DNA of 64,000 bases from a virus. The notes under the pieces were generated by a model. The model ran no database searches and had not been told where the DNA came from. It saw only the letters and a list, made by a program, of their open reading frames with translations. Shown piece after piece: positions 28,927 through 45,602 of this stretch; the first letter of the stretch is position 1; each line of letters begins with the position of its first letter. The position numbers and the translations under genes are program-made. Location of the stretch: the IMG/VR virus record IMGVR_UViG_3300020176_000011, positions 16,085 through 80,084 of that record. One strand, 5' to 3'.

Positions 28927-30646
28927 TTGATGCGTTCTTCTTCGGCTTGTTGAACTGAATCATTTGGTGTTGAGCCATTTCAGCAGATCCAAACAGAATG
29001 TTCGAGCGCAGGTCTTGATCTTCGGCGAGGTCGACGATCTCCCGCACACGCGGTGCAATCAGCACATACGCGATAGCATGGAAGAAGTGATCCGATCCAG
29101 AGAGCTTCTTCCAGACCGCCGCCTTCTCGGGCTCTTCCTCACGCACCATGTCGCGCAGATGCTCGATCAGGGTGTAGTCGTAGGTCGTGTAGCCGCTGAT
29201 TGTCAGCTCCTGGCGCTTGATGCTGCCGAAGACGCGGTCGAGCGCCATGGTGCGGTCGATCTGGCAGTGGTCGGCATGGGTCTTCTCGGGCACCTTGACG
29301 ACGCTGATTTCCTTCGTGCCAGTGTACTGGACCGGCATGATCCGACCCTTCGTGACGTCCCGCATCTCGTCGGCGGTCGGCGTATAGGGCAGTCGGTCGA
29401 TGCAGCCGCCGACGATGTTGAACTCGGACATGAACCGCTCAACCGTCTCGCGCAGTCGGACGTAGGGCACGACGGCGCAGTGGAAGATCTGCAGGTTCGA
29501 GTAGCTGGAGCCGGTGGCCAGTACGATGTGGCAGGCGATGCCGACGTCGATTCCGATCCAGACCTGAGACGACTTCGTCACGTTCGGCTGGCCCGGTGAC
29601 TTGAGGACACGCTTGATCTGCTCGACCGTCAGGCGCTCGTCCGCTCCCGTGAAGGCCTGTCCCAGCACGGTGTTGTGGAAGCGACGGATGGCCTCACGGC
29701 GTCGGTAGTTCAGCAGCTGCGTGACGATGTAGCTCGGTGGCAGCCGGTTGGTGGAGAAGGGCGTGATCCGGTAGCCGCGTGCGTGAGCCCGGCTCGGGAA
29801 CTTGGACACCCACTGTCGATTGTCCTCGCGACCGAGGTCGAGCGGGTTCTCGCATCGCTCGCACATCACGAAGGCGTTCACGATGTCGAGGCTCTGAGCG
29901 ATCTTGTCGTCGATCTCGGTGAGGTCTTCGATATGGTCGGGCAGACCCGGCAGGTTGATCCACTTCCGCTCGAACATCGGCGACTGCCAGTGGCCGCAGG
30001 AGTCGCATTTGACCAGGAACTCGTGCTGGTCGGACTGCTCGTAGGACAGATCGATGCCATAGCTGTGGAAGGTCGGAGTCGAGAAACGCTGGTTGATCTT
30101 ATAGGACGAGTTCTGCAGGCGCGAGTTGAACAGCGCCAGCATCTCCTGGTCGGTGAGGTCGACCTCGTCGTTCATGACCATGTCGGCTGAGATCGAGGTG
30201 GCGTCACCTTCCGACGCGCCGGTCAGGTAGAGCCAGCTGTCGCGCAGCTGCACGATGTCTCGGCTGCGGACCATCTTCTCACCCTTGCGAGGGAAGAAGA
30301 CCTGGTCCTTCTGGATGATCGGCTGCACGCGGCCCTGCGAGACGCGCTTGAACATGTCGTCGTCCGGCATGGTGTAGATCGCCGTCATGCCATTATTTCG
30401 CATGAGCCATGCCAGAATCTTCCGGATTTGGATCTCGGTCATGCCCACCTGGGACGGTTTGATCACGTCCATGTTCGGGTGCATGTCGTCGGCGATAGCG
30501 CGCTGGAACGGGTAGCGAGCGAAGGAGAATGGGCGGCCATTGAGCTTGGTGTTGGCGACGATCCAATCGCTCACGCTCATCTCTGCCTTGTCATGGGCAT
30601 ATCGATTCTGCAGCAGAGCCAGGAATTCCGCACTGTACTTGTTCAC
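28910..30646 (-). CDS. terL: Terminase large subunit (gpA-like)
   Basis: YPFQ, IKPSQVGMTE Walker A, NDEVD Walker B, FSTPT, CxxC pairs, GIDVG and DHFFHA nuclease motifs. Confidence 0.92.
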   Translation of the reverse strand: MNKYSAEFLALLQNRYAHDKAEMSVSDWIVANTKLNGRPFSFARYPFQRAIADDMHPNMDVIKPSQVGMTEIQIRKILAWLMRNNGMTAIYTMPDDDMFKRVSQGRVQPIIQKDQVFFPRKGEKMVRSRDIVQLRDSWLYLTGASEGDATSISADMVMNDEVDLTDQEMLALFNSRLQNSSYKINQRFSTPTFHSYGIDLSYEQSDQHEFLVKCDSCGHWQSPMFERKWINLPGLPDHIEDLTEIDDKIAQSLDIVNAFVMCERCENPLDLGREDNRQWVSKFPSRAHARGYRITPFSTNRLPPSYIVTQLLNYRRREAIRRFHNTVLGQAFTGADERLTVEQIKRVLKSPGQPNVTKSSQVWIGIDVGIACHIVLATGSSYSNLQIFHCAVVPYVRLRETVERFMSEFNIVGGCIDRLPYTPTADEMRDVTKGRIMPVQYTGTKEISVVKVPEKTHADHCQIDRTMALDRVFGSIKRQELTISGYTTYDYTLIEHLRDMVREEEPEKAAVWKKLSGSDHFFHAIAYVLIAPRVREIVDLAEDQDLRSNILFGSAEMAQHQMIQFNKPKKNASNGPLG

Positions 30647-30769
30647 GCTGTACCCCTTGGCATTGGGCGGCGAACTGCCGGACCAGTTCGCCGCCCTGCC
30701 GCCCCTGCCTCACACCCACGGCGCTTTCTACGGCGCGACTGCGATAAAAGCAAGCGACCAAGCGCCTTT

Positions 30770-30820
30770 CAATTTTTCACTTTGTCCTTGCAATAGTTTT
30801 CTACAGTGTATAAAAGTTCG
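30770..30820. promoter_or_regulatory. AT-rich divergent promoter region
   Basis: Between divergent terL and the 30845 ORF; TTGCAA at 30788 with TATAAAA downstream. Confidence 0.45.
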
Positions 30821-30844
30821 CTCCCAACGCAATTCGAGGCACCC

Positions 30845-31411
30845 GTGGATTACCATTTTCCCAGTATTCCCAATGACATAGCAGGCCAATTCGGCCTCAT
30901 GTTGATGATCGCCAAGGACAAGCCGGACTACTTCGACGCGCCGAACTGTCCGTATCCCGACGCTCTCAAGACGCTCCTCAAGGAGCTGACGGCCCCGAAG
31001 CCGGTCGCGCCCCCGGCCATCGTGAGCGTCGATCCGGTCCTTCCCGAGGACAAGTGGGTCACTCTGGAGCGGGAAGCGAAGAAGGTCTTCGACGATCTGA
31101 AGGCCTCCTACCCCGACATTCAGGTCCAGGACGTCGCCGAACGCATGTCGTTCTTCCGCACTGCGACGTCCTTGCTGGAGAAGCTGGTCGGCCTCCAGGA
31201 ACGTGCGGTCGGTTTGAAGCAGATGTCGGAGTTCCAGAACACCATCATCCAGTTCTTGGACGAGATCTGCGACAACAATCAGAAGACCATTCTCATGGAA
31301 CGAATCAAGGCCCTACAGTTGAGCGAAGGAGCGAACCGTGTCATCCAAGAAGACAAACCTGTGGTCAAAGCTAAGTCGGCATCTCAAGATCGTGGTGGCG
31401 AACCCGACTGA
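30845..31411 (+). CDS. Hypothetical helical protein (possible small terminase)
   Basis: GAGG RBS before GTG; adjacent to terL; function is a positional guess only. Confidence 0.5.
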   Translation: MDYHFPSIPNDIAGQFGLMLMIAKDKPDYFDAPNCPYPDALKTLLKELTAPKPVAPPAIVSVDPVLPEDKWVTLEREAKKVFDDLKASYPDIQVQDVAERMSFFRTATSLLEKLVGLQERAVGLKQMSEFQNTIIQFLDEICDNNQKTILMERIKALQLSEGANRVIQEDKPVVKAKSASQDRGGEPD

Positions 31412-31892
31412 CTTTGAGCCCAGTCAGTTCTTCGCACTCGGACTGCTCGAATTCTCCGAGTGGCCGCAGGAGCTTCTGGTCGCCCACTGGTTCTGGGACG
31501 GCAGCGGCAGCGAGGAACACCCGACCGTCCGCGTCGGCAAGGAGATCCACACGGTCCGCCGGGTTCTCTACTGCCTGACGGCCAACGATCCCGAGCCTCG
31601 GAAGGGCGTCTACTTCAAGGTCCACTGCAACGCAGTCGGCTGCGTGAACCCCAGCCACTTCCATCCGGAAGCAAAGAAGGGTTTCACACTCAATCCGGAC
31701 ACTCCCGTCTACAAGGAAGCCGTGGTTGAGCCGAACGATCTGGAGGATTTGGCTCAGGAGTTGATGGGTATCGTCGCAATGCGAGAGCCCGAGAGCTTCA
31801 AAGAGCTGATGAGTCGAGATTTCGTCAAGGAATTCACCGAAGATCAGGTTCGAGCAGCTCTCAAGTTCGCCGAACTCCCCGTACCCGCCTAG
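31338..31892 (+). CDS. HNH_3-like (possibly degenerate) nuclease/Zn-loop protein
   Basis: VRRVLYCL...HCNAVGCVNPSH motif. Confidence 0.6.
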   Translation: MSSKKTNLWSKLSRHLKIVVANPTDFEPSQFFALGLLEFSEWPQELLVAHWFWDGSGSEEHPTVRVGKEIHTVRRVLYCLTANDPEPRKGVYFKVHCNAVGCVNPSHFHPEAKKGFTLNPDTPVYKEAVVEPNDLEDLAQELMGIVAMREPESFKELMSRDFVKEFTEDQVRAALKFAELPVPA

Positions 31893-31902
31893 GACAATCA
31901 TC

Positions 31903-34443
31903 ATGAGTATCATGGACCAATTCATGTCTGGTAAGGCCGAAATCCTGCCGGAACACGACAAAGAAACGGGCGAAATCGTCGAAAAAGTCGTCGAAAACAC
32001 CGAAAATCCGCTCGAATTGAGCAAAATTCAGCATATTTTCGCTGAAACAGCGCCGTTTTACTTCGCTGCTGGCCTTCCGGTGATCCCGCTTGCACAGAGC
32101 AGCAAGCGCGCCATCCTGGACAACTGGGCCGCTTACCACGACCACATGCCGGACGAGGAGACGCGGGCGACGTGGCTCAAGAACTATGCCGATGGCAACA
32201 TCGGACTGGTTCTAGGCTCGGCTTCCGGCGTTTCGATGATCGACATCGACACCGAGGACACGGAACTGGCCCAGGCCCTCATCGCCGTGCTGCCCGAGAG
32301 CCCGTGGTGCAAGATCGGCAAGAAGGGTGTCACCCTGGCGTACCGCTACAACGGCACGCGCTCGTTCCGCATCCGTGGCAAGGTCGGCGGAATGATCATC
32401 GAGCATCTGTCGTCGAAGACGCAGACCGTGATGCCGCCGTCGATCCATCCCGACACGATGCGTCCCTACGTGTCGAACTGCAATCTCTGGGAAGTGAAGT
32501 CGCAGCTTCCCTCGTTGCCGCTCGACATTGAGGAACAGCTTCGCACCATGCTGACGAAGCGTGGCATCGAGCTGTCGGCCCACGGCTACACCAAGCTGTC
32601 CGACAAGGTGTCGGTTGGCTCGCGGGACATCTCGATCACGCAGCGCGCGGGCATGTATGCCACGTTCGTCATGCGTGGTGAGAAGTCCCTGATCGACGCC
32701 GCCAATGAGCTACGCACGAACATCTCGATGATGGTCGAGGATGTGGCTGGTGACCCGGTGGATCCCGAGAAGCACGTCCGCAACATGATCATGTTCATGA
32801 AGCGCGACGTGTTGGAGAAGAAGAAGCGCCTGCCGAAGGGTTGGGATACTGGCCTAACCGACGAGCAGAAGACCGAACTGGGTCTGGACTTCGGCCAGAA
32901 CGAGGTCGAGTGGTCGGCGACTGAGATGATCGCCTACCTGAAGAACGAGTTCGAGACGAACCCGATTGAGGGCGAGGGCCGTATGCAGGCCATCGACCGT
33001 ATCCTCGATCAGATGAAGAACACGAAGTCGCTCAACGACATCGACCAGGATCGGGTGTTGACCTACATCACCAACACCTCGAACATGAACATCAAGATCG
33101 GCACCCTGCGGAAGTCTCTGCGGGAGCGTCGGCAGGGCGAGATCACCGGTACGACTCACGGTCAGATCGCCGAGTGCTTGATCGAGGACTACAACAAGAT
33201 CAGTCCCCTCCGCTACTGGAACGACAAATTCTGGCGTTGGGGTGGATCGCACTGGGAGCGCGTGGAGAAGAACGAGATCCTCTCCAAGATCGTGAAGGAC
33301 TACGGCGAGCTTCCCGCTGCGAAGCGGTGGTCCGACCACAACGGCATCTACGGCACGATGTCGGCTCTGTCTTCGGGCCAGCTGGCCGAGACTCGAGAGT
33401 TTGGCGTCAACTTCGCCAACGGGTTCCTGCTGCGGAACATGAAGCTAGTCGAACATTCACCCAGCCACGGCATGCTCTACACGCTGCCCTACCGCTATAT
33501 GCCCGAGGACAGCCATCGCTGCACCAAGTGGCTCGCGTTCCTGGAGAAGATCTGGGGAGAAGACGAGGACTATCTGGAGAAGGTGGAGTGTCTGCGCGAC
33601 GTGATGTGCATCACGATGTTCGGCCTCGGGACGTCGATGCAACGCGCCGTGTTGCTCTACGGCATCCCACACTCAGGCAAGTCGCAGATCATGGGCGTGA
33701 TGGAGGGACTGATGGACCCGTCCACCGTGTCGATGGTGTCTCCGAAGATGTGGGGCGACAAGTTCTCTCCCATCGGCATGCTGGACAAGCTCCTGAACGT
33801 GTGCGGTGAGTTGGGTACGTCGCAGAAGATTGACGGTCCCAGCTTCAAGACCATCATCGCCGGTGAGCCGCTGGAAGTTCAGTACAAGGGCAAGCAGAAC
33901 TTCGGTGCCCGCTTCATCGCCACCCACTGGTTCGCCTCCAATCATGTGCCTCGGTCGGACGACGACACGGGTGGCTTCGTCCGTCGCTGGATCACGCTCA
34001 CTTTCAACAAGAAGATCACGGCGACCGAGAAGATCGACCGGTACTCGGAGATGTTGCTGGCCGAGGAGCGCGAAGCGATCTGCGCGTGGGTGATGGAGTC
34101 CGCGCACAAGTTCCAGAAGACGACGAACCCGACGTTCCCGAAGTCGCATCAGGCGTTCGTCCACGAGATGTTCAACATGCACAACTCGGTTCGGATGTTC
34201 TTCATGGATTCAGGCCTGGCTGTGGGCAAGTCTGAAGGCGAGATCGACGAACATTCCCTGCATCAGCGGTATTGGTCCTATTGCGTGCAGACGGGCCTGG
34301 CCCGGCCGGTGTCACAGTCGTTCTTCCGCAAGAAGGCTCGGGAGTTCGAGATGGACATCGGGTTCAAGATCGTGATGCGACCGAACAAGGACACCGGCAC
34401 GGAGGAAGCCTTCTACTCGGGCCTGTCGATGCGTCGGAAGTAA
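31903..34443 (+). CDS. Bifunctional Prim-Pol primase with D5-like SF3 helicase
   Basis: GLPVIPL, NIGLVLG, IDIDT, VMPPSIHPDT primase motifs; LYGIPHSGKS Walker A; FASNHVP; RRWITLTFN. Confidence 0.92.
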   Translation: MSIMDQFMSGKAEILPEHDKETGEIVEKVVENTENPLELSKIQHIFAETAPFYFAAGLPVIPLAQSSKRAILDNWAAYHDHMPDEETRATWLKNYADGNIGLVLGSASGVSMIDIDTEDTELAQALIAVLPESPWCKIGKKGVTLAYRYNGTRSFRIRGKVGGMIIEHLSSKTQTVMPPSIHPDTMRPYVSNCNLWEVKSQLPSLPLDIEEQLRTMLTKRGIELSAHGYTKLSDKVSVGSRDISITQRAGMYATFVMRGEKSLIDAANELRTNISMMVEDVAGDPVDPEKHVRNMIMFMKRDVLEKKKRLPKGWDTGLTDEQKTELGLDFGQNEVEWSATEMIAYLKNEFETNPIEGEGRMQAIDRILDQMKNTKSLNDIDQDRVLTYITNTSNMNIKIGTLRKSLRERRQGEITGTTHGQIAECLIEDYNKISPLRYWNDKFWRWGGSHWERVEKNEILSKIVKDYGELPAAKRWSDHNGIYGTMSALSSGQLAETREFGVNFANGFLLRNMKLVEHSPSHGMLYTLPYRYMPEDSHRCTKWLAFLEKIWGEDEDYLEKVECLRDVMCITMFGLGTSMQRAVLLYGIPHSGKSQIMGVMEGLMDPSTVSMVSPKMWGDKFSPIGMLDKLLNVCGELGTSQKIDGPSFKTIIAGEPLEVQYKGKQNFGARFIATHWFASNHVPRSDDDTGGFVRRWITLTFNKKITATEKIDRYSEMLLAEEREAICAWVMESAHKFQKTTNPTFPKSHQAFVHEMFNMHNSVRMFFMDSGLAVGKSEGEIDEHSLHQRYWSYCVQTGLARPVSQSFFRKKAREFEMDIGFKIVMRPNKDTGTEEAFYSGLSMRRK

Positions 34444-34467
34444 GTGTGGCAAAAATGACACACTCAG

Positions 34468-34497
34468 GGCCTGTGGCAGAAATGTCACAGGCCTTTT
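34468..34497 (+). terminator. Terminator after the primase-helicase (overlaps a motif B copy)
   Basis: GGCCTGTGGCA-GAAA-TGTCACAGGCC-TTTT. Confidence 0.75.
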
Positions 34498-34943
34498 GCT
34501 TGAACCGTTTTGGTTCAACTGAAATCCTCAAAATTTTCCCTAGTGAGTTTCGACCCTATCAAACTCCCTGGGTCCGTGACCCTAGAAAAAGTATACCCTC
34601 CTTCCTGAGCCTTAGTTTTATTGTAGGTCAGCCTTAGTATTGGTCGCCCTTCAAAGTCGCGTTTCATGTCGATTATTGTTGTCTCAATATATCCAAGGTG
34701 TATTGTCTCCCTATGTTCACTTCTTACTTTCCTCTCGCTACTTCCTCCCAGGGCCTCGCGGGGCCTGTGGGAGAGGTGCGTCCGGATTTTGGGATGCGGA
34801 ACATGGTCGGCGCTGCCAAATTTGGCAGCGCCGTCCACTGCCAAATTGGCAGTGCGGACGGCACGCATGGTGCGGCCGGTACCGCTCACGTCCACTGCCA
34901 AATTGGCAGCGGGCAAGGCAACGCAAACGGAAAGGCTAATCAA

Positions 34944-35690
34944 ATGACTGCCACCACGCAGGAAGCGGGCAAGGTCAACGCGAGCAACGTGACCCTTAAC
35001 CCGGTCAAGGTCTACAGCGACGAGCAAGAGGTTTCGTTCCGCGCGGCCGACGCCGCTGCCAATTTGGCAGCGAACGGCGCTCCCATCGCTTTCGTGGCGG
35101 CGCTGCTCGTCGCGGACAATTACGCAAGCGGCGTCATCTTGGAGCCGCGCGGCAAAGACCCGGTCCGGGTCGCGCGGCTCGCCAAGGCCAAGGAAGCCTT
35201 TGGCAATGAGCGGACGCCGTTCCGGTTCTGGGCCACGGCGCTGGCCTATCGCATCAAGGCCAGCACGGACGTCGAAACGGCCGTTTCGATGGCCACGAAA
35301 GACGACAAGGGCAAGCCCATCAAGACGGTAGAGGCCCAAGTCGCCCGCGCGACCGGCCTTCTGGTCCGCATGATGGCCTCGCGCGGCTATCACACCATGC
35401 ACGGCCTGTCCATCGGCCTTGGCCTGTCCAAAGACCCGGCCGACGGCAAGGGCAAGGGCAAGGGCAAGGCCGATAACTCGCCCAAGTCGGGCGAGGGGGA
35501 AGGCGCGGCGGACGGCGGCAAGGTCAAGGTCGCGGACGCGGCGGCGGACGTGCGGACGGCGCTGATCTGTGAAGCCCTCAAGGCTGGCGGTTTCTCGCCC
35601 GAACAGCACGCCCTCATCGCGGCGGCGGTTCTGGCTGCCAAGCCGGCGGATGTGACGGCCGACGCGGAACCGGAAAAGGTCGCGGCCTAA
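34944..35690 (+). CDS. Hypothetical 248-aa Ala-rich protein (candidate pre-early gene)
   Basis: AAAGG RBS; high-GC codon bias; GKGKGKGK linker; followed by a 35-bp palindrome. Confidence 0.75.
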   Translation: MTATTQEAGKVNASNVTLNPVKVYSDEQEVSFRAADAAANLAANGAPIAFVAALLVADNYASGVILEPRGKDPVRVARLAKAKEAFGNERTPFRFWATALAYRIKASTDVETAVSMATKDDKGKPIKTVEAQVARATGLLVRMMASRGYHTMHGLSIGLGLSKDPADGKGKGKGKADNSPKSGEGEGAADGGKVKVADAAADVRTALICEALKAGGFSPEQHALIAAAVLAAKPADVTADAEPEKVAA

Positions 35691-35785
35691 CGCGGCACGG
35701 CAAGCCCACTGCCAAATTGGCAGTGGGCTTGCCCCTCGCATAATCGCCCGGCAATCCGGCCGGACGATTATCAGAGGGAAACGCT

Positions 35786-35950
35786 ATGGACGCGATGACG
35801 GTTTTATTCGGGCTTCTGGCCCTGTCCATCCTATTCCTGCCGGTTTGCTTCTGGCTCGATAGCCGGGCGAGCCGGTCGCGGCGACAAATGCGCGCCCATC
35901 GTGCCCGCCAGCGTCGCGCGGCTGCCTTCTACCGGCGGGTCTGGTCATGA
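35786..35950 (+). CDS. 54-aa single-TM peptide with Arg-rich tail (below the ORF-track size cutoff)
   Basis: GAGGG RBS; MDAMTVLFGLLALSILFLPVCFWLDSRASRSRRQMR... Confidence 0.6.
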   Translation: MDAMTVLFGLLALSILFLPVCFWLDSRASRSRRQMRAHRARQRRAAAFYRRVWS

Positions 35951-36105
35951 GCCGGGAAAGGCGCTTCTACAGCGACCTTTGCCGGACGTTCCTCGCCTAT
36001 TGTCGCGAGGCCCGGAAAGTCGCGCCCGATGACGTGGACTTGCTCAAGGTCCATCAATCGAGGCTGGCCAAAGCCCGGTCAAACCGGAACCGGGCCACCG
36101 CCTGA
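35947..36105 (+). CDS. 52-aa basic peptide (below the ORF-track size cutoff)
   Basis: ATGA overlap with the previous stop; MSRERRFYSDLCRTFLAYCREAR... Confidence 0.55.
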   Translation: MSRERRFYSDLCRTFLAYCREARKVAPDDVDLLKVHQSRLAKARSNRNRATA

Positions 36106-36113
36106 CCCAGGAT

Positions 36114-36229
36114 CTGGCCCACGGGCCAGGGCCTGCGCCCGGATCGGGCGCAGGCGCGTCTATGTGTCATTTCTGCAACAGTCCCCAGGCGCAGGCCCTG
36201 GCCCAGGGACTGTTGCAGAAATGTCACAT
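36114..36229. repeat. Cluster of interlocking inverted repeats
   Basis: Hairpins at 36114-36129 and 36131-36155; a 24-bp-arm inverted repeat at 36162-36229 whose loop is complementary to 36123-36139. Confidence 0.85.
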
Positions 36230-36275
36230 TATTGGACCCGGCCTCTCCGGGTTTCGAAACTTTTGGAGGTGAATT

Positions 36276-36788
36276 ATGGCTAGGCCCAAATTCAGGCGTG
36301 GTAAATCCCGACAGGTCCCCGCCATACCCGTCTACAAGCCCCTCCGGAGGCCCGCACAGCTGCAAGAGGACCGTCTGGCTCCTGTGGTGGCCGACGGCAT
36401 CCACAGGCCTCTCAGCGAGGCCGGAATGGGCACTGGCGGCGGTGAATGGGGCTTCCATGCCGCGAACGGTCGGAGGCCCAAGCCGATCCGCCATCTGATG
36501 GCCTATGAGGATCAGGCCCGGCGTGAGCTTCAGCTGATCGAGCTGGAAGGCTGGATCAGGGATTGTCTGATCACGTCGGTCGAACCGGGCATGGGTCGCG
36601 AGCTGCCCCACGTTCGGATTTACCATCAGGGTGCCGTCGTGGGTCGTCGCCCGCGTGTGTTCCCCGAGCGGGAGGTCCGTAGGGCCAAGCCCGAGGTCGC
36701 CAAGGTGGCACCGGTCCGGAGGCAGCCCCGCGTGCTGCGGGCCATCGCCAGGGATGTGACCATGGGCGGGACCGTGTACTCGATCTGA
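36276..36788 (+). CDS. Hypothetical Arg-rich protein
   Basis: GGAGGT RBS, ATG start. Confidence 0.6.
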   Translation: MARPKFRRGKSRQVPAIPVYKPLRRPAQLQEDRLAPVVADGIHRPLSEAGMGTGGGEWGFHAANGRRPKPIRHLMAYEDQARRELQLIELEGWIRDCLITSVEPGMGRELPHVRIYHQGAVVGRRPRVFPEREVRRAKPEVAKVAPVRRQPRVLRAIARDVTMGGTVYSI

Positions 36789-37441
36789 GTCCCATGGTAG
36801 GGCTGTGGGCGCAGGCCCTGGCCCGACCAACACAACATCTAGTGAGCGGGCCGTATAAAACTTTTCTTACTTGAACACGTAAGAAAAACAGAGGGGTATA
36901 CACATTAAATGTGGGGTTATGTGGTAAAAATGTCACAGTACCCAAAAACTATTTTCTATACGTATTAAGTTAAAAAAGTTTTATACAGTCCGCGCCACCA
37001 CCATTCATGGTGTGTTGCGCAAATGTCACGCCATATCTGGTGACAGCGGACCAAGCGCCTTTTGAAATTGTTGTCGCTCACGTAGCGCATCTTCCAGCAC
37101 TCGGCTCGACCGAGTGCTGAAACATGCACTATAGGTGTGTCTTTCTCGATCTGGAGGTCGTCTCGAACAACTTGCTGGCCTACTGCCAAATTGGCAGTAA
37201 CGCTCCAGCGACCCACTAGGTATAGAGATAGGACAGCAACACTGACCAATTCGGGCCAGTGCCTACCGCTGGGCCAAATGGCCCTGAACCACTGCCAATT
37301 TGGCAGTAAAGCCAAGCGGCTGGCACCGGCCCACGGATACGGCCACGGCCACGAAGCTGAGACAAATGCTGGGTGTAAACGTCGCCAACACCCCGGATTT
37401 GGAACCGACCCGGCGACAACAGCAGACGAAAGGAACCGACT

Positions 37442-37678
37442 ATGGCTCAGATCAACCGAGTGAACCTCGTGGGGATTTCCCGCACGATCCCGTGGACCAA
37501 TTCCAAGGGCACGCCTCTCCCGAGGGTCGGCGGCGAGGTCATCAGCCTGTACGAGAACCTGACCGAGGAACAGGCCCTGATCCGGTGCGAAGAGCTGAAC
37601 AGGGAGCATCGTTCGACCGATTTCACGGCGACGATCATCCCCCAGGTCGAGTACCCCTCGTACTACTACACCAACTGA
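37442..37678 (+). CDS. Hypothetical early protein
   Basis: AAAGGA RBS; phage-like codon usage. Confidence 0.65.
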   Translation: MAQINRVNLVGISRTIPWTNSKGTPLPRVGGEVISLYENLTEEQALIRCEELNREHRSTDFTATIIPQVEYPSYYYTN

Positions 37679-37824
37679 TGAGCAGGACCGACTCCAACAC
37701 CGAGAGCGCAAGCTGAAGCTGCGAAACCTCCGTGTCCAAACTCAGGATGTGAAGCCTGCGTCAAAAGCAGACTACACATTCATGCGTCGCGACGAATTCT
37801 TCAACCCCGACAATTGAGGCACCC

Positions 37825-39382
37825 ATGTTGACCCTCAACCCGAAACAGCTGCGTCGTGCCCGCGACGGCGCTGCTGCCAAATTGGCAGTAGCTCAACTGG
37901 CCCTCACAAACGCTGAAAAGCGGCTGGCCATTTCCAAGTCCGCCTCGGCTCGTGAGGAATACGACGAGGCCAACCGACAGGTGATCGCCGCGACCACCGT
38001 CAAGCGGCTGATCGAAATCGATGCGCGCTCTTAGCAGCATCGCCCTCGCCATCATCGCACCCTTCATTGGGTGGGATGCTGCCATCTACTGGCATGATCT
38101 CGTCTTCAGCTACACAGGCCATGGAGTGTATGCTGAGCTGATGACGTTCTTCGCCATCATCGCCATGCTGGCGACCTTCGTGGTCGCTCAGTGCAGGTTG
38201 TGGAAACCGGAACTGCATCGGTTCTTAAACCCGACCTAATTCTCTTTCCCGAGTTGTCGTAATTCCCGGTCCTGCGCCGCCCTCAAAAGCCACAGACTAC
38301 TGGGTATAGTCGGCCAGCGGAAAGAGATACGCCCACACCTCGCACAACCTAGACCTCCGTGGTGCCTATCCACAGGTCACACATCATCGTGCTTGGTGTG
38401 GGCGTACTTTATTTGGAGGTAATCATGTCCCATTACGAGCGTCACATTCGCCGGATGGACACTTGGCGTCTTTGTGCTGAGCATGTCTACTATGTGGACC
38501 TTGTTCGCCGTGATCGTCGTGTATTCGGCATGATGGACCATCTCAGCAGCGCACGGGCTGCAGCCTGTTGGCGTGAAATCGTTCGTCGTTCAAACGGAGG
38601 CTTGTCATGAAGACCGATTTGTATTTCGAGGTCCACATCACCCTCGATCCGATCATGCCCGAGTCCGAGATGGGCATTCTTCTGCGCTCGCTTACGGTCC
38701 ATCACGGGTTCCGTGTGGCCAAGTTCGTGATGAACGAACAGGACAGCTTCCTGACCACGCGTGGCACCGATTACGACGATGTCGTGCGTCGGACGAAGAA
38801 CATGATCGAGAGCCTTCGTCTGTTCAACTTCCCGATCCGGCGCTACAAGCTGGAGAACACGATCCTGGACACCAAGGCCACGAACACCGATCCGCTCGGG
38901 TGCCTGACGTCCAGTATGCCCGTCGGCGGCAACTGATGCGCCAGATCGCGGACGATCAAAGCCTGGGTCCCTTTAGTAGAGGCGAACACGCTACGATCAC
39001 CGAGGTCTTCAACCAATACAGGCTCTCCACGCGAGGTCGCAAAGCCGCGTGGAAAGTTATCAGCCTCGACTGGTATCTAGGTCGAACAGGCAGGTTCTAC
39101 GCCTATCTTCGGGCGCATGAATTCGGTTCGGCTGAGAAACCCGGCAAATATGTGTGGGTGACAATCACCTACATGAACAACAGTCGTGACTCGATTGCTC
39201 AACCCAACATGGTTGAAGCCACCAAGTATGCGATGAGCAACATCAGCTACAGCGGTGGCAAGGTGCGTCGGGTCGAAATCGAAACCGAGAAGGACAGCAA
39301 ACGTGCTGTATGGGATGCATCATGGCCAGAAGTCGTGGGTACTGGAAGCGCAAGGATAGCAGGCGAGCCCGCCGCATCCTGA
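37825..39382 (+). CDS. Five small hypothetical genes (37825-38034, 38021-38239 membrane, 38425-38610, 38607-38936, 38936-39382)
   Basis: RBSs and coupled start/stop codons. Confidence 0.55.
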
Positions 39383-39714
39383 ACCGTTCGCTCGATGTCA
39401 TCACCCAGATCGGTACTGCCAAATTGGCAGTGCTGATGACGGAAAACATGTCGGGCTCGTCGCTGATCGGCAACCGTCGCGAGTTGAGCCGGATCGACAA
39501 GATGACCCAGGAAATCCTGGCGCGTGATGCCCGTCAACAGCAAGAGCTGGATGATTACTTCGATGCTCTCTACGAGCAGGAAGCTGCCCTTTACAAGGAA
39601 GAGGCAGCTCAAGAATACCGGCAGTACCTGAGCGAACTGCAGGACGATTATGGCGATGAGGTGTGGGACAGTCGCTATGATGAACTCGAATCCCACTATG
39701 ATTGGAACTACTGA
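39322..39714 (+). CDS. Hypothetical protein with highly acidic, Tyr-rich C-terminus (start 39322 or 39436)
   Basis: 19 D/E in the last ~56 aa. Confidence 0.55.
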   Translation: MARSRGYWKRKDSRRARRILNRSLDVITQIGTAKLAVLMTENMSGSSLIGNRRELSRIDKMTQEILARDARQQQELDDYFDALYEQEAALYKEEAAQEYRQYLSELQDDYGDEVWDSRYDELESHYDWNY

Positions 39715-39715
39715 C

Positions 39716-40153
39716 ATGACACGAGACGAACTGGTCAGGGTCCTTGAGACTACCTTGAGCATGGGTGGGCACAATATCGCCCTCCGTGCTGAGGTCGTCC
39801 GACAGATCCTGGAGGTGCTGAAGCTGCCGGTGTTTCCGGCGACGCTCACTCCCGAGCTGAATGATGTGATCAGGAGCGCTCGGGCGAACACCAACTATCG
39901 GCAGAACGAGGGGCTGCATCGGGACATCCTGAAGCACCTGATGCCCAAGCCGCTCACGATGTTCGTGTTCTACGCGACGCAGATGAACAGCTACAACCAG
40001 CCCAACGTGCCGAAAATCTTTCGGCACAAGACCAAGGAAGGTGCCGACAAGAACCGCGACGCTGCGATCAGGTTGTCGCCGGACTGCTACATCAACGTCA
40101 GCGAGGTGATCGAAGTGCCCCGCGACGTCAACGATCCGCCGCTCGGCTCATGA
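39716..40153 (+). CDS. Hypothetical protein, paralog family 1 copy a
   Basis: TMFVFYA...NVSEVIEVP shared with the next two genes. Confidence 0.75.
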   Translation: MTRDELVRVLETTLSMGGHNIALRAEVVRQILEVLKLPVFPATLTPELNDVIRSARANTNYRQNEGLHRDILKHLMPKPLTMFVFYATQMNSYNQPNVPKIFRHKTKEGADKNRDAAIRLSPDCYINVSEVIEVPRDVNDPPLGS

Positions 40154-40584
40154 GCAAGCTGATCGCCAATCTGGACGCCATCATCCAGAGCGCCAAGAAT
40201 GATGGGCGAACGACATCGTTCGTCACCATCGAACTGCTGGAGCAGATTCGGGTGAAGCTGCTCGATCCCACAATGCCGATGGCGATGCCTGTCGAGCTGC
40301 ACGAGCATATCCACACGGCTCGTCGCAATTCGATGACCGACCCGGCGGGTTCGAGGCTTCTGTACAGCACCATTCGTCAGGCTCTGATGCAGCCTGTGAC
40401 GATGTTCATCTACTACGCGACCCTCAAGCACTCGGGTCAGATGAAGATCTACAAATATCTCAAGAAGGAAAGTGCCGAATCGGCTGCACAGTCCTGTCGC
40501 GATGCCACCAACACATGGTCCAACGTGAGCCCTGTGATGGAAGTCCCGTTCGAGAATTCGGACAATCACGTCAACAAGCACTGA
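40150..40584 (+). CDS. Hypothetical protein, paralog family 1 copy b
   Basis: TMFIYYA...NVSPVMEVP. Confidence 0.75.
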   Translation: MSKLIANLDAIIQSAKNDGRTTSFVTIELLEQIRVKLLDPTMPMAMPVELHEHIHTARRNSMTDPAGSRLLYSTIRQALMQPVTMFIYYATLKHSGQMKIYKYLKKESAESAAQSCRDATNTWSNVSPVMEVPFENSDNHVNKH

Positions 40585-40595
40585 GGAACATCATC

Positions 40596-41048
40596 ATGGA
40601 AAAGCGTGAAATCGTCGTCGAACTCGGCCGCAAGATCAAGGATGCCGAATCCCGTGGTCGCTCCGAGCTGAGCATCTGCGTCGAAGGTGCGAAGTCCGGC
40701 CTGAAGCTGCTGTCCGAGCCGACGCTCGGCGTGCTGCCCAAGGTGCCGACGTCCGAGATGCGCCAGGTCATCCGCGAGGCGATGCAGTCCGGCACCAGCA
40801 TGGACATCTACAACGCCATCTACAAGGAGCTGAACAAGCCGAAGCCGATGTGGGCGTGGTACGCCGAGGTCAATCCGACCGGCCGGACGTCGCCGACGTG
40901 GGAAGTGCGGATGTTCCGCTACGACAACAAGGGCGATGCCGAGAGCAACCGCACCGGCGCCATCGGCATCACGCACAGCTATCGCAACGTCAGCCCGCTG
41001 CTGGAAGTCCCCAGCGACGGCAAGGAAGGCCAGAACCAGTACGCGTAG
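40596..41048 (+). CDS. Hypothetical protein, paralog family 1 copy c
   Basis: PMWAWYA...NVSPLLEVP. Confidence 0.75.
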   Translation: MEKREIVVELGRKIKDAESRGRSELSICVEGAKSGLKLLSEPTLGVLPKVPTSEMRQVIREAMQSGTSMDIYNAIYKELNKPKPMWAWYAEVNPTGRTSPTWEVRMFRYDNKGDAESNRTGAIGITHSYRNVSPLLEVPSDGKEGQNQYA

Positions 41049-41075
41049 GGTTCCCATCAACCGAAGGAGATTGTC

Positions 41076-41517
41076 ATGAACCACTTCACTGCTGCGAACG
41101 AAGCGTTCGAGCGGAAGCTCAAGATCACCCGCAAGGGAGGCGACAAGAAGAAGATCGCCGAACTCATCGCGGGCCGAAACGAGTTCGTTCGCAAGTACGC
41201 GGACAGTTTGCGTCTCGCCGACAAGCGTGACGCCGCCGTGCGCATCCTCCAGCAGGACTGCCACCATGTGGCATAGTGGCATGGAAGCCTTCTTCGGCTG
41301 GACCCTCGTGGTCCTGATGTGCATCGCTGGGCTCCACTGGATCTACGAGTTCGTCTGGAAACTCTGGTCGCTCCTCGTCCAGATCTGGTTCTGGTCGGAC
41401 TTCAACAAGACCCAGCAGTACGAGTTCGAGCAGTCGCTGGAGAAGCGCAACAGCTGGTTCTTCATGTGGACCGTCGTGCTGTTCGCGATGGTGTGGATCG
41501 TCAGGAACTTCATCTGA
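41076..41517 (+). CDS. Two small hypothetical genes (41076-41276; about 41281-41517, membrane protein)
   Basis: AAGGAG RBS; hydrophobic Trp-rich segments in the second. Confidence 0.55.
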
Positions 41518-41584
41518 CGCTTCGTTAGACCACAGGGCTACTGCCAAATTGGCAGTAGCCCTGACCTGTAACGAGGAGATCAAC

Positions 41585-42154
41585 ATGAACATGAATATGG
41601 ACGAGCTGATCGCAAACAGCTTCATGGATTTCCATCAGAAGGATTTCCATTATCTCTGCGTGCGTCGGTCGCCGACGATGACAGAGAAGTTCTACTTCTT
41701 CGACGGCGACGTGAGTAAGCTGCCCGAGGTGGTGGCTCCCCACGATCATCGCTACCAGTTTCTGACCAAAGCCGTGCGCGGCACGGTCGAGAACCGGGTC
41801 TACAGCCGCGACTATCTGCCCTATGCGGAGTGCGCGACGTTCCAGCGGTTCTCGTATATGACTCCGCTCAACGGCGGCAACGGTTTCACTTGGGCTGCCG
41901 AAGAGAAGCTCTACCTGCAGAGCAGCGAAAGGTATTGGAATAGGTCGTACTGGATGGCGGCCGACGACATTCACACGATCCAGATCATCGAACCGGGCAC
42001 CATCCTCAAGCTGTATCAGTTCGAGGACGTTGTGCCGATCAACAAACCTACCAGCACCTGGATGCTGGACCGCGAACCGCCGAACCTGTCGGGCCTGTAC
42101 CGCAAGCCCACGCCCGACGAGATCAATGGCTTGCTCAAGAGATTGGAGACGTGA
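41585..42154 (+). CDS. Cupin-fold protein (possible dioxygenase)
   Basis: PHDHRYQFLTKAVRG...IHTI metal-binding cupin pattern; GAGGAG RBS. Confidence 0.6.
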   Translation: MNMNMDELIANSFMDFHQKDFHYLCVRRSPTMTEKFYFFDGDVSKLPEVVAPHDHRYQFLTKAVRGTVENRVYSRDYLPYAECATFQRFSYMTPLNGGNGFTWAAEEKLYLQSSERYWNRSYWMAADDIHTIQIIEPGTILKLYQFEDVVPINKPTSTWMLDREPPNLSGLYRKPTPDEINGLLKRLET

Positions 42155-42155
42155 C

Positions 42156-42404
42156 ATGGACCTCAATCACACCGACATCACCGGCAAGACCGGTCAGGAG
42201 TTCGTCTGCCTCATCGGCAAGACCTACCGTCACAATGCCCGCTCGAAATACTACAAGATCGTGGGCGTGGTGTATCTCGGCGAGATGGACCTGTGGGGCC
42301 TGAGCTATCGCGAGAACAACAGCGAGGTCATGCACGTTCGCAGCCACGTCAACTTCTTCGGCACGCAGGCTGGCAGCGAAGACCTGCGCTTCGAACAGGT
42401 TTGA
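42156..42404 (+). CDS. DUF1653-like SH3-type protein
   Basis: YRH...YKIVGV...HVRS..NF....RF pattern. Confidence 0.55.
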   Translation: MDLNHTDITGKTGQEFVCLIGKTYRHNARSKYYKIVGVVYLGEMDLWGLSYRENNSEVMHVRSHVNFFGTQAGSEDLRFEQV

Positions 42405-42406
42405 GT

Positions 42407-43899
42407 ATGGTGACCCGAGTGGACAACCAGGCCTACATGCAGATGACGCAGGCTCAGCGTGACGCCTATCACGACAAGCGTCGTCGCGAACAGAACGACG
42501 TGGATCGGAAGCGTCTGCTGAAGATCCCGATGTTCTTGACGCGCGAGTTCACCGACGCGCAAGGCCAGGTCCAGTTCCTGATCATCAAGCGGCACGTCAA
42601 CAAGAGCTGCGCTGGACTGTTCACCATTCACCAGAAGATTCCGAGCTTCTGGCAGCATCATTGGGCGCACTATCAAGCGCCCGGTGTACAGGGCAAATAC
42701 GTCGGCTTCTATTTCGAGAAGGGTCACTACTGCGACGAGTACCCACCGACGATCCTCCAGGACCTGCACGACTACGCGCATGGTGACCTGAAGCCGTTGG
42801 AGGACCGCTACGGTGGTCAGTTCGACCAGTCGCGCTTTCAATGGGAGCTGTGAAATGTCGCTCGATGTGTGGCTGATGAAGACGCAGCCGACCGAGGTGT
42901 TCAGTGCGAACATCACGCACAACCTCAACACGATGGCCGAGGAAGCTGGTGTCTACCAGCACCTGTGGCGGCCGGAAGAGATTGGCATCAGCAAAGCGGG
43001 TGACCTCATTCTTCCTCTGACCGAAGCGGTCAAGAAGATGGAGGAGAACCCGGTGCGTTTCCGTAAGCACAACGCACCGAATGGCTGGGGCACCTATGAA
43101 GGGCTGCTCAAGTTCATCAAGAACTATCTGGCCGCCTGCATCGAGCATCCGGACGCTGAGATCGGAGTGTCGCGATGAGTTGGCAACCGATGCACACGGC
43201 TCCCATCGCCAAGGATGACGATGGTGAGCCACAATACATTCTCGCCGCCGACGAAGACGGCGTGGTCGAGAAAGTCTTTTGGGGCGATTGCGCCGAAGGC
43301 ATGGGTGGCGATGATCCCTGCAATACGTGGTGCATCGCCCACAGTCTCAACGACGAGCGCGGTGGTTGGAGTACCCACCTCGCCGTCAAATGGCAACCGC
43401 TTCCGGAGGCGTAAATGAGCATCGCATCTTGGTGGAAAGAGTTCACCAAACCTGATCCTGAGATCGAGATGCAAGTCGCTCGGTATCAGGTCCACAAAGG
43501 CGCGGGCTATCTGATCTCTGCCTACGACCACATGGTTCGCAGCGGTCGTAACATGCGCAACTTCATCGTGTCCGACTGGACGGTGAAGAGCCACACCGAT
43601 GGATACTGGCAAGTTAGCCTGCATTTCATCGGACGCAGGATGATGGAGGGCGACCTGTGAAGTGCCAGTGGGAACCCGCAGACATCTGGTGCGGTCGGGT
43701 CACCAAGTACAGCGACGGTACGCAGGAGAAGTGGATGATCGGCTACGACGCCACCATTCGCGACAGTCGCAAGCACTACTGCCTGATCAGCCTCAACGAC
43801 GGCATGATCATGCTCAAGAATTCGACGGCCGAAGAGGTGTGCAAGCATCTGACCGAGGCCAAGCTGGAGCCCGACGAGATCGTCAATAGGAGGAACTGA
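42407..43899 (+). CDS. Five hypothetical genes (42407-42853, 42855-43178, 43175-43414 DUF551-like, 43415-43660, 43657-43899)
   Basis: Coupled ORFs; WQPMHTAP...WQPLP DUF551-like motif; NITHNL...PNGWG motif. Confidence 0.6.
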
Positions 43900-44450: not shown

Positions 44451-44459
44451 GAGACGACA

Positions 44460-45416: not shown

Positions 45417-45602
45417 TGCTGGTCGCCATGTTCTATATCCGACTCGCAGGGGCCTTGTGCCTCTGCGTGTTGGCCGGTGGGCTGATCGTCAGTGGTCAGC
45501 CCACCCTGGTCGTCTTCGGTGCGCTCTGCATCGCGGCGGCACTCTGCATGGTTCCGAGCCACAAACACACTCGGGACTACCAACCCATCTGAGGTCATCA
45601 TC

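What the first reader, a model, noticed from the sequence alone, without database searches (positions are those of the whole stretch)
34371..36260. Restriction-site-depleted three-gene segment closed by a hairpin cluster: candidate first-step-transfer module
Seen (manual counts): only one GATC (35564) in 34371-36110, against about 20 in the adjoining 1.7 kb of the primase gene. I found no AGCT from about 33845 to 36357 and no GANTC from 34441 to about 36300, and GTCGAC/CTCGAG are absent although common elsewhere. The segment holds a 248-aa gene plus 54-aa TM and 52-aa basic peptides that the ORF track missed, and ends in interlocking inverted repeats. Established: T5 injects a pre-early segment first and pauses at a repeat-rich stop signal. 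Inference: this DNA meets host restriction before protection is set up, so the three orphan genes are candidate anti-restriction or entry factors in a phage with a gpA-type terminase.
Basis: partly seen in the sequence, partly recalled or inferred. Interest (0 to 1): 0.85.

Follow-up and report, generated by a model that had tools for sequence, protein, structure and literature searches.

The report
Collapsed terminal repeat with early orphan genes
The flagged segment is most likely the roughly 2.3-kb repeat carried at both physical ends of this metagenomic phage's DNA, holding fast-evolving early genes of unknown function. Its lack of GATC/AGCT sites reflects local base and amino-acid composition, not avoidance of restriction enzymes.

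Summary
The counts are correct. There is one GATC in 34371-36110, no AGCT in 33842-36357 and no GANTC in 34208-36786. However, the segment is not poor in restriction sites as a class. It has more 4-bp and 6-bp palindromes per kb than the rest of the genome, with CCGG, CGCG, GCGC and GGCC at 2-3x. Codon-aware and local Markov nulls remove the significance.

Separate evidence places the segment at the genome ends:
- Four relatives (Achromobacter JWF and 2-1, Xylophilus Lumi, Caulobacter Seuss) carry 1.5-2.3 kb direct terminal repeats (DTRs) just downstream of the primase. Each holds a 223-265 aa gene plus small genes.
- The non-coding block at Lumi's mapped repeat edge aligns with window 34500-34558.
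- Outside this clade, the terminase resembles only long-repeat packagers (phage K, SPO1 relatives).
- In three metagenome runs, contigs over about 34565-36860 have about twice the depth of their flanks.

The unit therefore spans about 34559-36917 and includes a fourth conserved gene (36276-36788). The 52-aa ORF is not conserved.

Terminal, early-entering DNA is supported. Restriction avoidance and a T5-type injection stop are not. This is a new member of a known kind.

The parts
34444..34558 (.). Conserved non-coding block just outside the predicted left repeat edge. It holds two copies of the GCAGAAATGTCACA-like motif (34449-34462, 34476-34489), a 7-bp-stem hairpin (34500-34518) and an AAAATTTT tract (34527-34540) about 18 nt before the edge.
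   Evidence: 87% identical to L007 up to 34604, after which similarity collapses. It aligns with the sequence just before Lumi's PhageTerm-mapped repeat edge, and an AAAATTT tract also precedes the Seuss and JWF edges. Motif copies.
34559..36917 (.). Predicted direct terminal repeat, collapsed to one copy in this assembly. Left edge about 34559-34565; right edge about 36860-36920.
   Evidence: Edge alignments to Lumi and Seuss. Contig depth is about 2x over 34565-36860 in runs X4, X9 and X1. An inverted repeat is centred at about 36919. Size matches Lumi's 2298 bp.
34813..34909 (+). Leader with three copies of the palindrome CTGCCAAWTTGGCAG (34813 is a 16-mer variant; also 34838 and 34895) upstream of the 248-aa gene.
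   Evidence: Copies are also present upstream of the homologous gene in L007 and in more distant relatives.
34944..35690 (+). 248-aa gene: basic, Ala-rich, helical N-domain (residues 21-165), low-complexity linker and a short acidic helical C-terminal domain. No known family.
   Evidence: GC3 is 0.84 and a Shine-Dalgarno sequence is present. Only 6 relatives were found among 1.84 billion representatives, at 39-96% identity. No Pfam, PHROG or NCBIfam hit. AF2 pLDDT is 78-94 for residues 21-165. No fold match.
35699..35733 (+). 35-bp perfect hairpin built on the same palindrome, 9 nt after the stop codon of the 248-aa gene (the 15-mer core begins 19 nt after it). No T-run follows.
   Evidence: A copy sits at the same relative place in L007.
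35786..35950 (+). 54-aa protein with one transmembrane helix and an Arg-rich tail.
   Evidence: 54% identical to an ORF at the same place in L007, although the DNA no longer aligns. Shine-Dalgarno sequence present.
35947..36105 (+). 52-aa basic ORF, start overlapping the previous stop codon. This is a variable cassette, and whether it is a real gene is uncertain.
   Evidence: Absent from L007, which has two other small ORFs elsewhere in the repeat. Replaced by 141 other letters in the wastewater relative (joint 35940-36122).
36122..36229 (.). Hairpin cluster: a GC-rich terminator-like hairpin (about 36131-36158) followed by a 69-bp palindrome (36162-36229) whose arms each carry the GCAGAAATGTCACA motif.
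   Evidence: L007 keeps the first hairpin and only one arm of the palindrome.
36276..36788 (+). 170-aa Arg-rich gene (pI 11.3) with a strong Shine-Dalgarno sequence, bracketed by a perfect 19-bp inverted repeat (36122-36140 / 36807-36825). It is part of the same unit but was not in the finding.
   Evidence: 71% identical in L007. Six relatives only. No family hit. Inverted repeat.
36846..37030 (.). AT-rich right-edge block: a 27-nt inverted repeat (36846-36872 / 36967-36993) centred on the predicted edge, a 41-nt stretch identical in L007 (36955-36995), and two further GCAGAAATGTCACA-like copies just outside the edge (36924-36937, 37017-37030).
   Evidence: JWF has a similar sequence (TTGCGCAAATACAACAG) 4 nt outside its right repeat edge.

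Best explanation
**What it is.** The segment is the direct terminal repeat (DTR) of an 80-kb siphovirus of the JWF/Lumi/Seuss lineage, assembled from salt-marsh metagenomes and collapsed to a single copy in the record.

**How it is made.** A terminase of the long-repeat type cuts concatemers at fixed sites near 34559 and 36917. Every virion therefore carries this roughly 2.3-kb stretch at both ends. Conserved non-coding blocks at the two edges are the likely recognition and cleavage signals.

**What it carries.** The repeat holds a leader with a palindrome array and three conserved genes on the + strand (248 aa, 54-aa membrane peptide, 170 aa), plus a variable small cassette. All run in the same direction as the long row of small early genes to the right.

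**How it acts.** Both ends are identical, so this is the first DNA in the cell whichever end leads. The genes are placed to be immediate-early, host-directed functions, as in the repeats of phage K, SPO1 and T5. Their molecular targets are unknown.

**The site paucity.** The lack of GATC, AGCT and TCGA is a by-product of GC-rich, Ala/Gly/Arg-rich coding and non-coding sequence. It is not selection against restriction sites.

**Shown:** repeats at this map position in relatives, terminase affinity, edge conservation, roughly 2x contig depth, compositional origin of the paucity.
**Inferred:** exact edges, early expression, host-directed function.
For: 1. **Repeats in relatives.** JWF has an exact 1466-bp repeat at both record ends and Achromobacter 2-1 an exact 1542-bp one. 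Seuss has an annotated 1748-bp repeat. Lumi has a 2298-bp repeat found by PhageTerm (PMC9959647). All lie 0.3-1.7 kb downstream of the primase and on its strand. Each holds a 223-265 aa gene followed by 1-2 small genes.
2. **Synteny.** The order terminase / phrog_30421 gene / primase is the same here.
3. **Edge conservation.** Window 34500-34545 aligns with the sequence just before Lumi's left edge. The Seuss and Lumi edges fall 18 nt after the AAAATTT tract, which predicts 34559. The right-edge alignment predicts about 36917, the centre of a 27-nt inverted repeat.
4. **Terminase type.** Apart from this clade, the terminase large subunit hits only Staphylococcus K-like, Bacillus SPO1-like, Listeria A511-like and Enterococcus phages, all long-repeat packagers.
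5. **Contig depth.**
   - X4: 16.1, then 31.7, 30.5 and 27.2 over 36188-36860, then 14.6 beyond.
   - X9: 3.65-4.16 on the left, 7.79 for the contig 34565-37582, 3.8 on the right.
   - X1: 52.9 for the left-flank contig against 67.5 for the 5.9-kb contig starting at 34565.
6. **Divergence.** The interior is 65-71% identical to L007 against 87% in the flanks, with a replaced cassette. This is typical of early host-interaction genes.
7. **Precedent.** Phage K repeat genes are the first transcripts, seen at 2 min (PMC9241854).
8. **Composition.** The paucity is compositional. The same GATC/TCGA-poor, CGCG- and GCGC-rich signature recurs in L007 and in the JWF and Seuss repeats; Lumi shares the GATC paucity and the GCGC excess.
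Against: - No raw reads were available, so there are no read-start pile-ups and no per-base coverage. Contig depths are means per contig and sum over strains.
- The contig breaks at 34565/34594 and 36831/36860 are explained by co-occurring strain variants, not by physical ends.
- The right-edge alignment to Lumi is weak, at about 55-60% identity in AT-rich sequence.
- The 2x stretch resolved in X4 (36188-36860) nearly coincides with the cassette bracketed by the 19-bp inverted repeat. A second element sharing only that cassette is conceivable.
- The positional analogues in JWF, Lumi and Seuss show no sequence or profile similarity to the 248-aa protein.
- Early expression is inferred only by analogy.
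Confidence: 0.7

Rival explanations
1. T5-type first-step-transfer module. Only the terminal segment enters at first. Entry pauses at the hairpin and palindrome cluster (36122-36229), and products of the three genes are needed for the rest of the DNA to enter.
For: The segment is probably terminal and inside a repeat, as the T5 first-step region is (bioRxiv 10.1101/866236). Conserved non-coding repeats sit beside poorly conserved ORFs, as in T5. The cluster has interlocking inverted repeats.
Against: - No DnaA-box array of the kind conserved at the T5 stop signal.
- No family match of any kind for the four proteins, so none to T5 pre-early families.
- The long palindrome is not conserved in the close relative L007.
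- The cluster is inside the predicted repeat, not at its end, and a conserved gene follows it.
- The terminase and the whole genome belong to a different lineage.
- Two-step entry is known for T5-like phages but not for JWF-like ones. This last point is from my own knowledge.
Confidence: 0.06
2. Real restriction avoidance. The leading DNA has been purged of sites for particular host enzymes (GATC, AGCT, GANTC or GTCGAC specific), because it is exposed before an early anti-restriction function acts.
For: - The largest gaps in the genome for GTCGAC (15.8 kb, P=3.6e-6), AGCT (2.5 kb, P=5e-4) and GATC all overlap this region under a uniform null.
- GTCGAC stays low against local Markov expectations: 0 observed against 5.7 (order 4) or 10.5 (order 2).
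- The concept is established for T5 and for Autographiviridae.
Against: - Palindromes as a class are enriched, not depleted.
- GATC and AGCT are explained by composition and codon content.
- GANTC is low across the whole genome.
- L007 has GATC and AGCT at local expectation and three GCGAC-type (GTCGAC) sites inside the equivalent zone.
- Lumi and Achromobacter 2-1 show no gaps centred on the termini.
- The GTCGAC-free zone is much larger than the segment and was chosen after the fact among about 45 motifs.
Confidence: 0.12
3. An internal compositional island. These would be horizontally acquired GC-rich morons in a genome that is packaged by cos or headful cutting elsewhere, with no terminal repeat here.
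For: GC is 0.63-0.67 against 0.58, with distinct oligonucleotide usage. The genes are orphans. The 170-aa gene is bracketed by a perfect 19-bp inverted repeat, like a cassette. Assemblies run straight through both predicted edges.
Against: - Read-through at both edges is also what a collapsed repeat gives.
- The terminase type, the repeat position in four relatives, the conserved edge blocks and the roughly 2x depth in three runs all point to a repeat.
- The island and its composition are shared by L007 at the same place, so it is not a recent acquisition.
Confidence: 0.1

Closest known systems
Direct terminal repeats of Xylophilus phage Lumi (2298 bp), Caulobacter phage Seuss (1748 bp), Achromobacter phages JWF (1466 bp) and 2-1 (1542 bp)
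   Same: Same map position (downstream of the primase, before the row of small early genes) and same strand. Same layout: a 220-265 aa gene followed by small genes. An AAAATTT tract lies shortly before the left edge, and the outer edge is AT-rich in Lumi and Seuss. The terminase, primase and phrog_30421 genes are related (41-46% identity).
   Different: The repeat-encoded proteins share no detectable sequence or profile similarity with those here. This repeat is inferred, not mapped. The palindrome CTGCCAAWTTGGCAG was looked for only in this phage and its close relative L007, not in those four genomes.
Long terminal repeats of Herelleviridae (Staphylococcus phage K, Bacillus SPO1, Listeria A511)
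   Same: Related terminase large subunit (23-28% identity over most of its length). The repeats encode small orphan genes that are the first to be transcribed in phage K (PMC9241854).
   Different: Those are myoviruses of Gram-positive bacteria with repeats of 3-13 kb (sizes from my own knowledge). No gene is shared.
Phage T5 left terminal repeat with first-step-transfer region and injection stop signal
   Same: Early genes sit inside a terminal repeat. Non-coding repeats are conserved beside poorly conserved ORFs. The logic that leading DNA is the part exposed to host nucleases also applies.
   Different: The T5 repeat is about 10 kb, with a 1.2-1.7 kb untranslated repeat region that carries eight DnaA boxes, and pre-early genes A1, A2 and dmp. 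None of these was found here. Two-step entry is untested.

Membership tests
Direct-terminal-repeat genomes of the JWF/Lumi/Seuss lineage | Terminase large subunit related to that of phages with mapped long terminal repeats | tested here: met
   Best tblastn hit is Achromobacter 2-1 at 45.6% identity. All further hits are Herelleviridae-type phages, and no lambda-like phage appears. The Pfam GpA_ATPase hit alone does not tell cos from repeat packaging.
Direct-terminal-repeat genomes of the JWF/Lumi/Seuss lineage | Repeat located directly downstream of the primase, ahead of the early-gene row | tested here: met
   The map position is the same in JWF, 2-1, Lumi and Seuss. Here the segment lies between the primase (ends 34443) and the first conserved early gene (37442).
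Direct-terminal-repeat genomes of the JWF/Lumi/Seuss lineage | The same sequence is present at both ends of virion DNA (2x coverage, fixed read starts) | tested here: inconclusive
   Only Logan contigs were available. Contig depths are about 2x over 34565-36860 in three runs. There is no per-base coverage and there are no read starts.
Direct-terminal-repeat genomes of the JWF/Lumi/Seuss lineage | Conserved sequence at the repeat edge | tested here: met
   The left edge block aligns with Lumi (about 73% over 44 nt), and an AAAATTT tract lies 5-21 nt before the edge in all four relatives. The right edge similarity is weak.
T5-type first-step-transfer module | Untranslated repeat region with an ordered array of DnaA boxes at the stop signal | tested here: not met
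   No TTATCCACA-like box (up to 1 mismatch) lies within 34-38 kb. The window holds 5 in all against 6.4 expected by chance.
T5-type first-step-transfer module | Pre-early genes homologous to A1, A2 or dmp | tested here: not met
   No PHROG, Pfam or NCBIfam family matched any of the four proteins.
T5-type first-step-transfer module | Entry in two steps, with the second dependent on protein synthesis | not testable with these tools
   Needs an isolated phage and host.
DNA-mimic anti-restriction proteins (Ocr, ArdA type) | Strongly acidic protein, or a family match | tested here: not met
   pI values are 8.84, 12.0, 10.5 and 11.3. No family or fold match.
Restriction-site avoidance in leading DNA | Under-representation of short palindromes beyond what local composition predicts | tested here: not met
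   Total 4-bp palindromes 125 against 124.3 expected. Palindromic 4- and 5-mers 246 against 249.7. Corrected P=0.11. Only GTCGAC, over a far larger zone, stays low.

The most novel reading that the evidence does not exclude
The terminal repeat and its flanks form a leading-DNA zone kept free of one host enzyme's site: GTCGAC, with none in 15.8 kb centred on the termini against 78 in the genome. The orphan basic proteins encoded in the repeat would provide a new, non-mimic protection or entry function that acts before the rest of the genome is exposed. In its strongest form this would involve a staged, T5-like entry in a siphovirus lineage unrelated to T5.
Probability: 0.08. Interest if true: 0.7.

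Novelty: new member of a known kind. Interest (0 to 1): 0.3.

Why it matters
- **Annotation.** It shows where the physical ends of an uncultured 80-kb phage most likely lie. It also identifies which of its orphan genes are first in line for expression. This helps anyone annotating JWF/Seuss-like phages or looking for early host-takeover and anti-defence genes.
- **Packaging signals.** It points to conserved edge elements: an AAAATTT tract, a hairpin and flanking GCAGAAATGTCACA-like motifs. These are candidate terminase signals for this lineage.
- **Method.** A striking local lack of particular restriction sites can arise from composition alone. It should be tested against palindromes as a class and against codon-aware nulls before it is read as anti-restriction selection.

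Tried and rejected
- **The look-up of encoding contigs:** The 81,998-bp contig that also encodes these proteins could not be examined.
- **megablast to phage records:** no match.
- **IMG/VR scan with the 248-aa protein:** nothing. The primase scan gave L007.
- **JGI metagenome scan:** only another piece of the same phage, 99.9% identical, running through both predicted edges.
- **Positional analogues in JWF, Lumi and Seuss:** no similarity by BLASTP or hhalign.
- **First AF2 model (4 sequences):** unusable, pLDDT 39.5.
- **Second AF2 model (7 sequences):** confident for residues 21-165. It found nothing in PDB or BFVD at E<=0.001, and the best VIA-align Z was 5.8, within helical-bundle background.
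  - BFVD rank 2 (A0A0B5A005, 233 aa, probability 0.80) is the same length as JWF's repeat protein. It could not be identified and remains a lead only.
- **ESM Atlas:** only unnamed viral clusters. Weak leads to DUF3102 and a phage repressor domain at 0.81-0.82.
- **Rfam:** nothing above gathering score.
- **tRNA scan:** none.
- **Sigma-70 scan:** one 10/12 match that reuses the palindrome as its -35 element. The other palindrome copies have no -10 element, so the palindrome is not a promoter.
- **Shorter repeat ending at the hairpin cluster (about 36200):** rejected, because X4 contigs over 36188-36860 are at 2x and the AT-rich outer edge seen in Lumi and Seuss matches 36845-36990.
- **Contig breaks as physical ends:** rejected, because variant-strain contigs share the same break points.
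- **Gaps centred on the termini as a lineage-wide rule:** rejected. The number of 6-bp palindromes whose largest gap covers the repeat is at chance in this genome, Lumi and 2-1.

Full report
**Setting**

The window is bases 16085-80084 of a single 80,084-bp contig with no terminal overlap. Its DNA is held by about ten salt-marsh metagenome runs. A relative about 93% identical occurs in wastewater runs.

The minus strand from 30646 leftwards carries the terminase, head and tail genes. The plus strand from 30806 carries a phrog_30421 gene, an HNH-like ORF and an 846-aa primase that ends at 34443. The flagged segment follows, then dozens of small ORFs and the replication genes.

**Checking the observation**

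The counts are right:
- One GATC (35564) in 34371-36110, against 23 and 13 in the equal-sized flanks.
- No AGCT in 33842-36357.
- No GANTC in 34208-36786.
- No other 1750-bp window of the genome has as few GATC.

The description 'restriction-site-depleted' does not hold:
- The segment has more 4-bp palindromes (80.5 against 63.7 per kb) and more 6-bp palindromes (15.5 against 11.1 per kb) than the rest of the genome.
- CCGG, CGCG, GCGC and GGCC are 2-3x enriched.
- Against expectations built from the segment's own trinucleotides, GATC is 1/3.8, AGCT 0/3.3 and all 4-bp palindromes 125/124.3.
- Resampling synonymous codons of the 248-aa gene with the genome's codon usage gives 3.5 GATC expected against 1 observed (P=0.07), and nothing significant for any motif.
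- A test that corrects for picking the three most depleted of 32 palindromic 4- and 5-mers gives P=0.11. Ordinary control segments gave 0.018-0.25.
- GANTC is low everywhere in this genome.
- GTCGAC is absent from a much longer stretch, and CTCGAG is rare throughout.

The same GATC/TCGA-poor, GC-palindrome-rich signature is seen in the homologous region of the close relative L007. It is also seen in the terminal repeats of JWF, Lumi and Seuss, where GATC sits at local Markov expectation.

**What the segment is**

*Relatives and their repeats.* The primase and terminase identify the nearest cultured relatives as Achromobacter phages JWF and 2-1, Xylophilus phage Lumi and Caulobacter phage Seuss (38-46% identity).

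All four have direct terminal repeats:

| Phage | Repeat | Basis |
|---|---|---|
| JWF | 1466 bp, exact | |
| 2-1 | 1542 bp, exact | |
| Seuss | 1748 bp, annotated | |
| Lumi | 2298 bp, PhageTerm | PMC9959647, |

In every case the repeat lies just downstream of the primase and on its strand. It contains a 223-265 aa gene followed by one or two small genes. It is followed, in the other copy, by the row of small early genes. That is the position and layout of the flagged segment.

*Edge sequences.* The non-coding sequence just before Lumi's left repeat edge aligns with window 34500-34545. In Lumi and Seuss the edge falls 18 nt after an AAAATTT tract, which predicts a left edge at about 34559. 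The right-edge alignment is weaker. It predicts about 36917, which is the centre of a 27-nt inverted repeat (36846-36872 / 36967-36993) in an AT-rich stretch like the outer edges of Lumi and Seuss.

*Terminase type.* The terminase carries the Pfam GpA_ATPase domain. Outside its own clade it resembles only K-like, SPO1-like, A511-like and related phages, which package with long terminal repeats.

*Depth evidence.* Only Logan contigs could be laid, so depth is one mean per contig.
- **X4:** a 52-kb contig at 16.1 ends at 36217. The short contigs over 36188-36860 sum to 31.7, 30.5 and 27.2, with two alleles at 24+7.7 and 20.4+6.8. The next contig, from 36831, is at 14.6. This fits two strains at 12 and 3.9, each doubled in the repeat.
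- **X9:** flanks are at 3.65-4.16 and 3.8, and the contig 34565-37582 is at 7.79.
- **X1:** the left-flank contig is at 52.9, and the 5.9-kb contig starting at 34565 is at 67.5. That corresponds to 1.6-2.4 kb at double depth.

The contig breaks themselves are branch points created by co-occurring variants, so I do not read them as physical ends. The roughly twofold depth in three runs of very different absolute depth is what a collapsed repeat gives. It is suggestive, not decisive.

**Anatomy of the unit**

Taking about 34559-36917 as the unit:
- **Outside the left edge:** a block 87% identical to L007, with two GCAGAAATGTCACA-like motifs, a hairpin and the AAAATTTT tract.
- **Leader:** three copies of the palindrome CTGCCAAWTTGGCAG.
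- **248-aa gene.**
- **Hairpin:** a 35-bp perfect hairpin on the same palindrome.
- **54-aa membrane peptide.**
- **52-aa ORF.**
- **Hairpin cluster:** a GC-rich hairpin and a 69-bp palindrome whose arms carry the second motif.
- **170-aa Arg-rich gene:** bracketed by a perfect 19-bp inverted repeat.
- **AT-rich right edge:** two more copies of the second motif lie just outside it.

Against L007 the interior is only 65-71% identical, while the flanks are 87%. Even so, the 248-aa, 54-aa and 170-aa proteins are conserved (55%, 54% and 71% identity). The 52-aa ORF is missing in L007 and replaced in the wastewater relative. The unit therefore has three conserved genes plus a variable slot. The hairpin cluster is internal, not a closing element.

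**Gene function**

- None of the four proteins matches Pfam, PHROGs or NCBIfam.
- The 248-aa family has six members among 1.84 billion representatives.
- A seven-sequence AlphaFold model is confident for a helical domain (residues 21-165). It has no significant match in PDB or BFVD.
- All four proteins are basic. This argues against Ocr/ArdA-type DNA mimicry and is compatible with nucleic-acid binding.
- The positional analogues in JWF, Lumi and Seuss are not detectably homologous.

**Most likely mechanism**

A long-repeat terminase cuts concatemers at the conserved edge blocks and duplicates the 2.3-kb stretch. Every virion therefore starts and ends with it.

Whichever end leaves the capsid first, these genes are the first in the cell. 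From the left copy they are read in the direction of entry and on into the early region.

In phage K, repeat-encoded genes are the first transcripts at 2 min (PMC9241854). In T5, the pre-early genes lie in the left repeat (bioRxiv 10.1101/866236). I therefore rate immediate-early, host-directed function as the best reading. Rapid divergence and cassette turnover fit this. Early expression and function are inferences.

**Comparison with T5**

- No DnaA-box array.
- No family match of any kind for the four proteins, so none to T5 pre-early families.
- The long palindrome is not conserved in L007.
- It lies inside the repeat.

Two-step entry cannot be tested here.

**Residual oddity**

GTCGAC has 78 sites in the genome but none in window 30159-45920, a 15.8-kb stretch centred on the repeat. 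Under uniform placement P=3.6e-6. Local order-4 and order-2 models expect 5.7 and 10.5 sites.

Several points weaken a selective reading:
- L007 has three sites in the equivalent zone.
- Lumi and 2-1 show no gaps centred on the termini.
- The number of hexamer palindromes whose largest gap covers the repeat is at chance.

I leave this unexplained. It is the main support for the novel reading.

**Verdict**

The feature is a new member of a known kind: a terminal repeat carrying early orphan genes.

The decisive test, per-base coverage and read starts, remains to be done.

Noticed in passing
window 34813-49740; L007 8299-12850: Twelve copies of the palindrome CTGCCAAWTTGGCAG (11 exact 15-mers and one 16-mer), all in the repeat and the first 13 kb of early genes. 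Their positions are conserved in L007: an array upstream of the 248-aa gene, one copy after it, an array upstream of the first early gene, and one inside a conserved ORF. The flanks extend the stem with modest covariation (score above 493 of 500 shuffles). Array spacing of 25-27 bp is operator-like. It is not a sigma-70 promoter.
   Followed up: partly
window 34449, 34476, 36163(-), 36215, 36924, 37017: Six GCAGAAATGTCACA-like motifs: two just outside each predicted repeat edge and an inverted pair inside. JWF has a similar sequence 4 nt outside its right repeat edge, and Lumi has two ACAGT-containing repeats there. This is a candidate packaging or regulatory signal.
   Followed up: partly
window 30159-45920: A GTCGAC-free zone of 15.8 kb centred on the repeat (78 sites in the genome; P=3.6e-6 uniform; 5.7-10.5 expected locally). 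It is not shared by L007.
   Followed up: partly
whole window: GANTC is under-represented genome-wide: 108 in 64 kb against about 237 from base composition, and 2-3 against about 8 per 1.5 kb in control segments. GATC and TCGA are about 2.6x above base-composition expectation but match trinucleotide expectation.
   Followed up: partly
window 36122-36140 and 36807-36825: A perfect 19-bp inverted repeat brackets the 170-aa gene, and the same 17-mer recurs in the loop of the 69-bp palindrome. The arrangement is conserved in L007 and looks like a cassette.
   Followed up: partly
window 31338-31892: An HNH-endonuclease-like ORF (weak PHROG match) lies between the phrog_30421 gene and the primase. 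JWF and 2-1 instead carry two HNH genes between the primase and the repeat.
   Followed up: no
genome ends (window 64000 and genome base 1): The record is cut just after a terminator hairpin, where the plus-strand and minus-strand gene blocks converge. There is no end overlap, so the record start is not a physical end indicated by any repeat.
   Followed up: partly
run X11 laid on window 33500-38500: A relative about 93% identical occurs in wastewater metagenomes of 2022, a different habitat from the salt-marsh source. It keeps the 248-aa and 54-aa genes but replaces 35941-36121.
   Followed up: partly
Achromobacter 2-1 record 38232-40467: Strong gaps in CATG and TCGA (P=1.6e-4 and 5e-3) fall over one large ORF far from the termini. 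Site-free islands of this kind therefore also arise away from genome ends.
   Followed up: no
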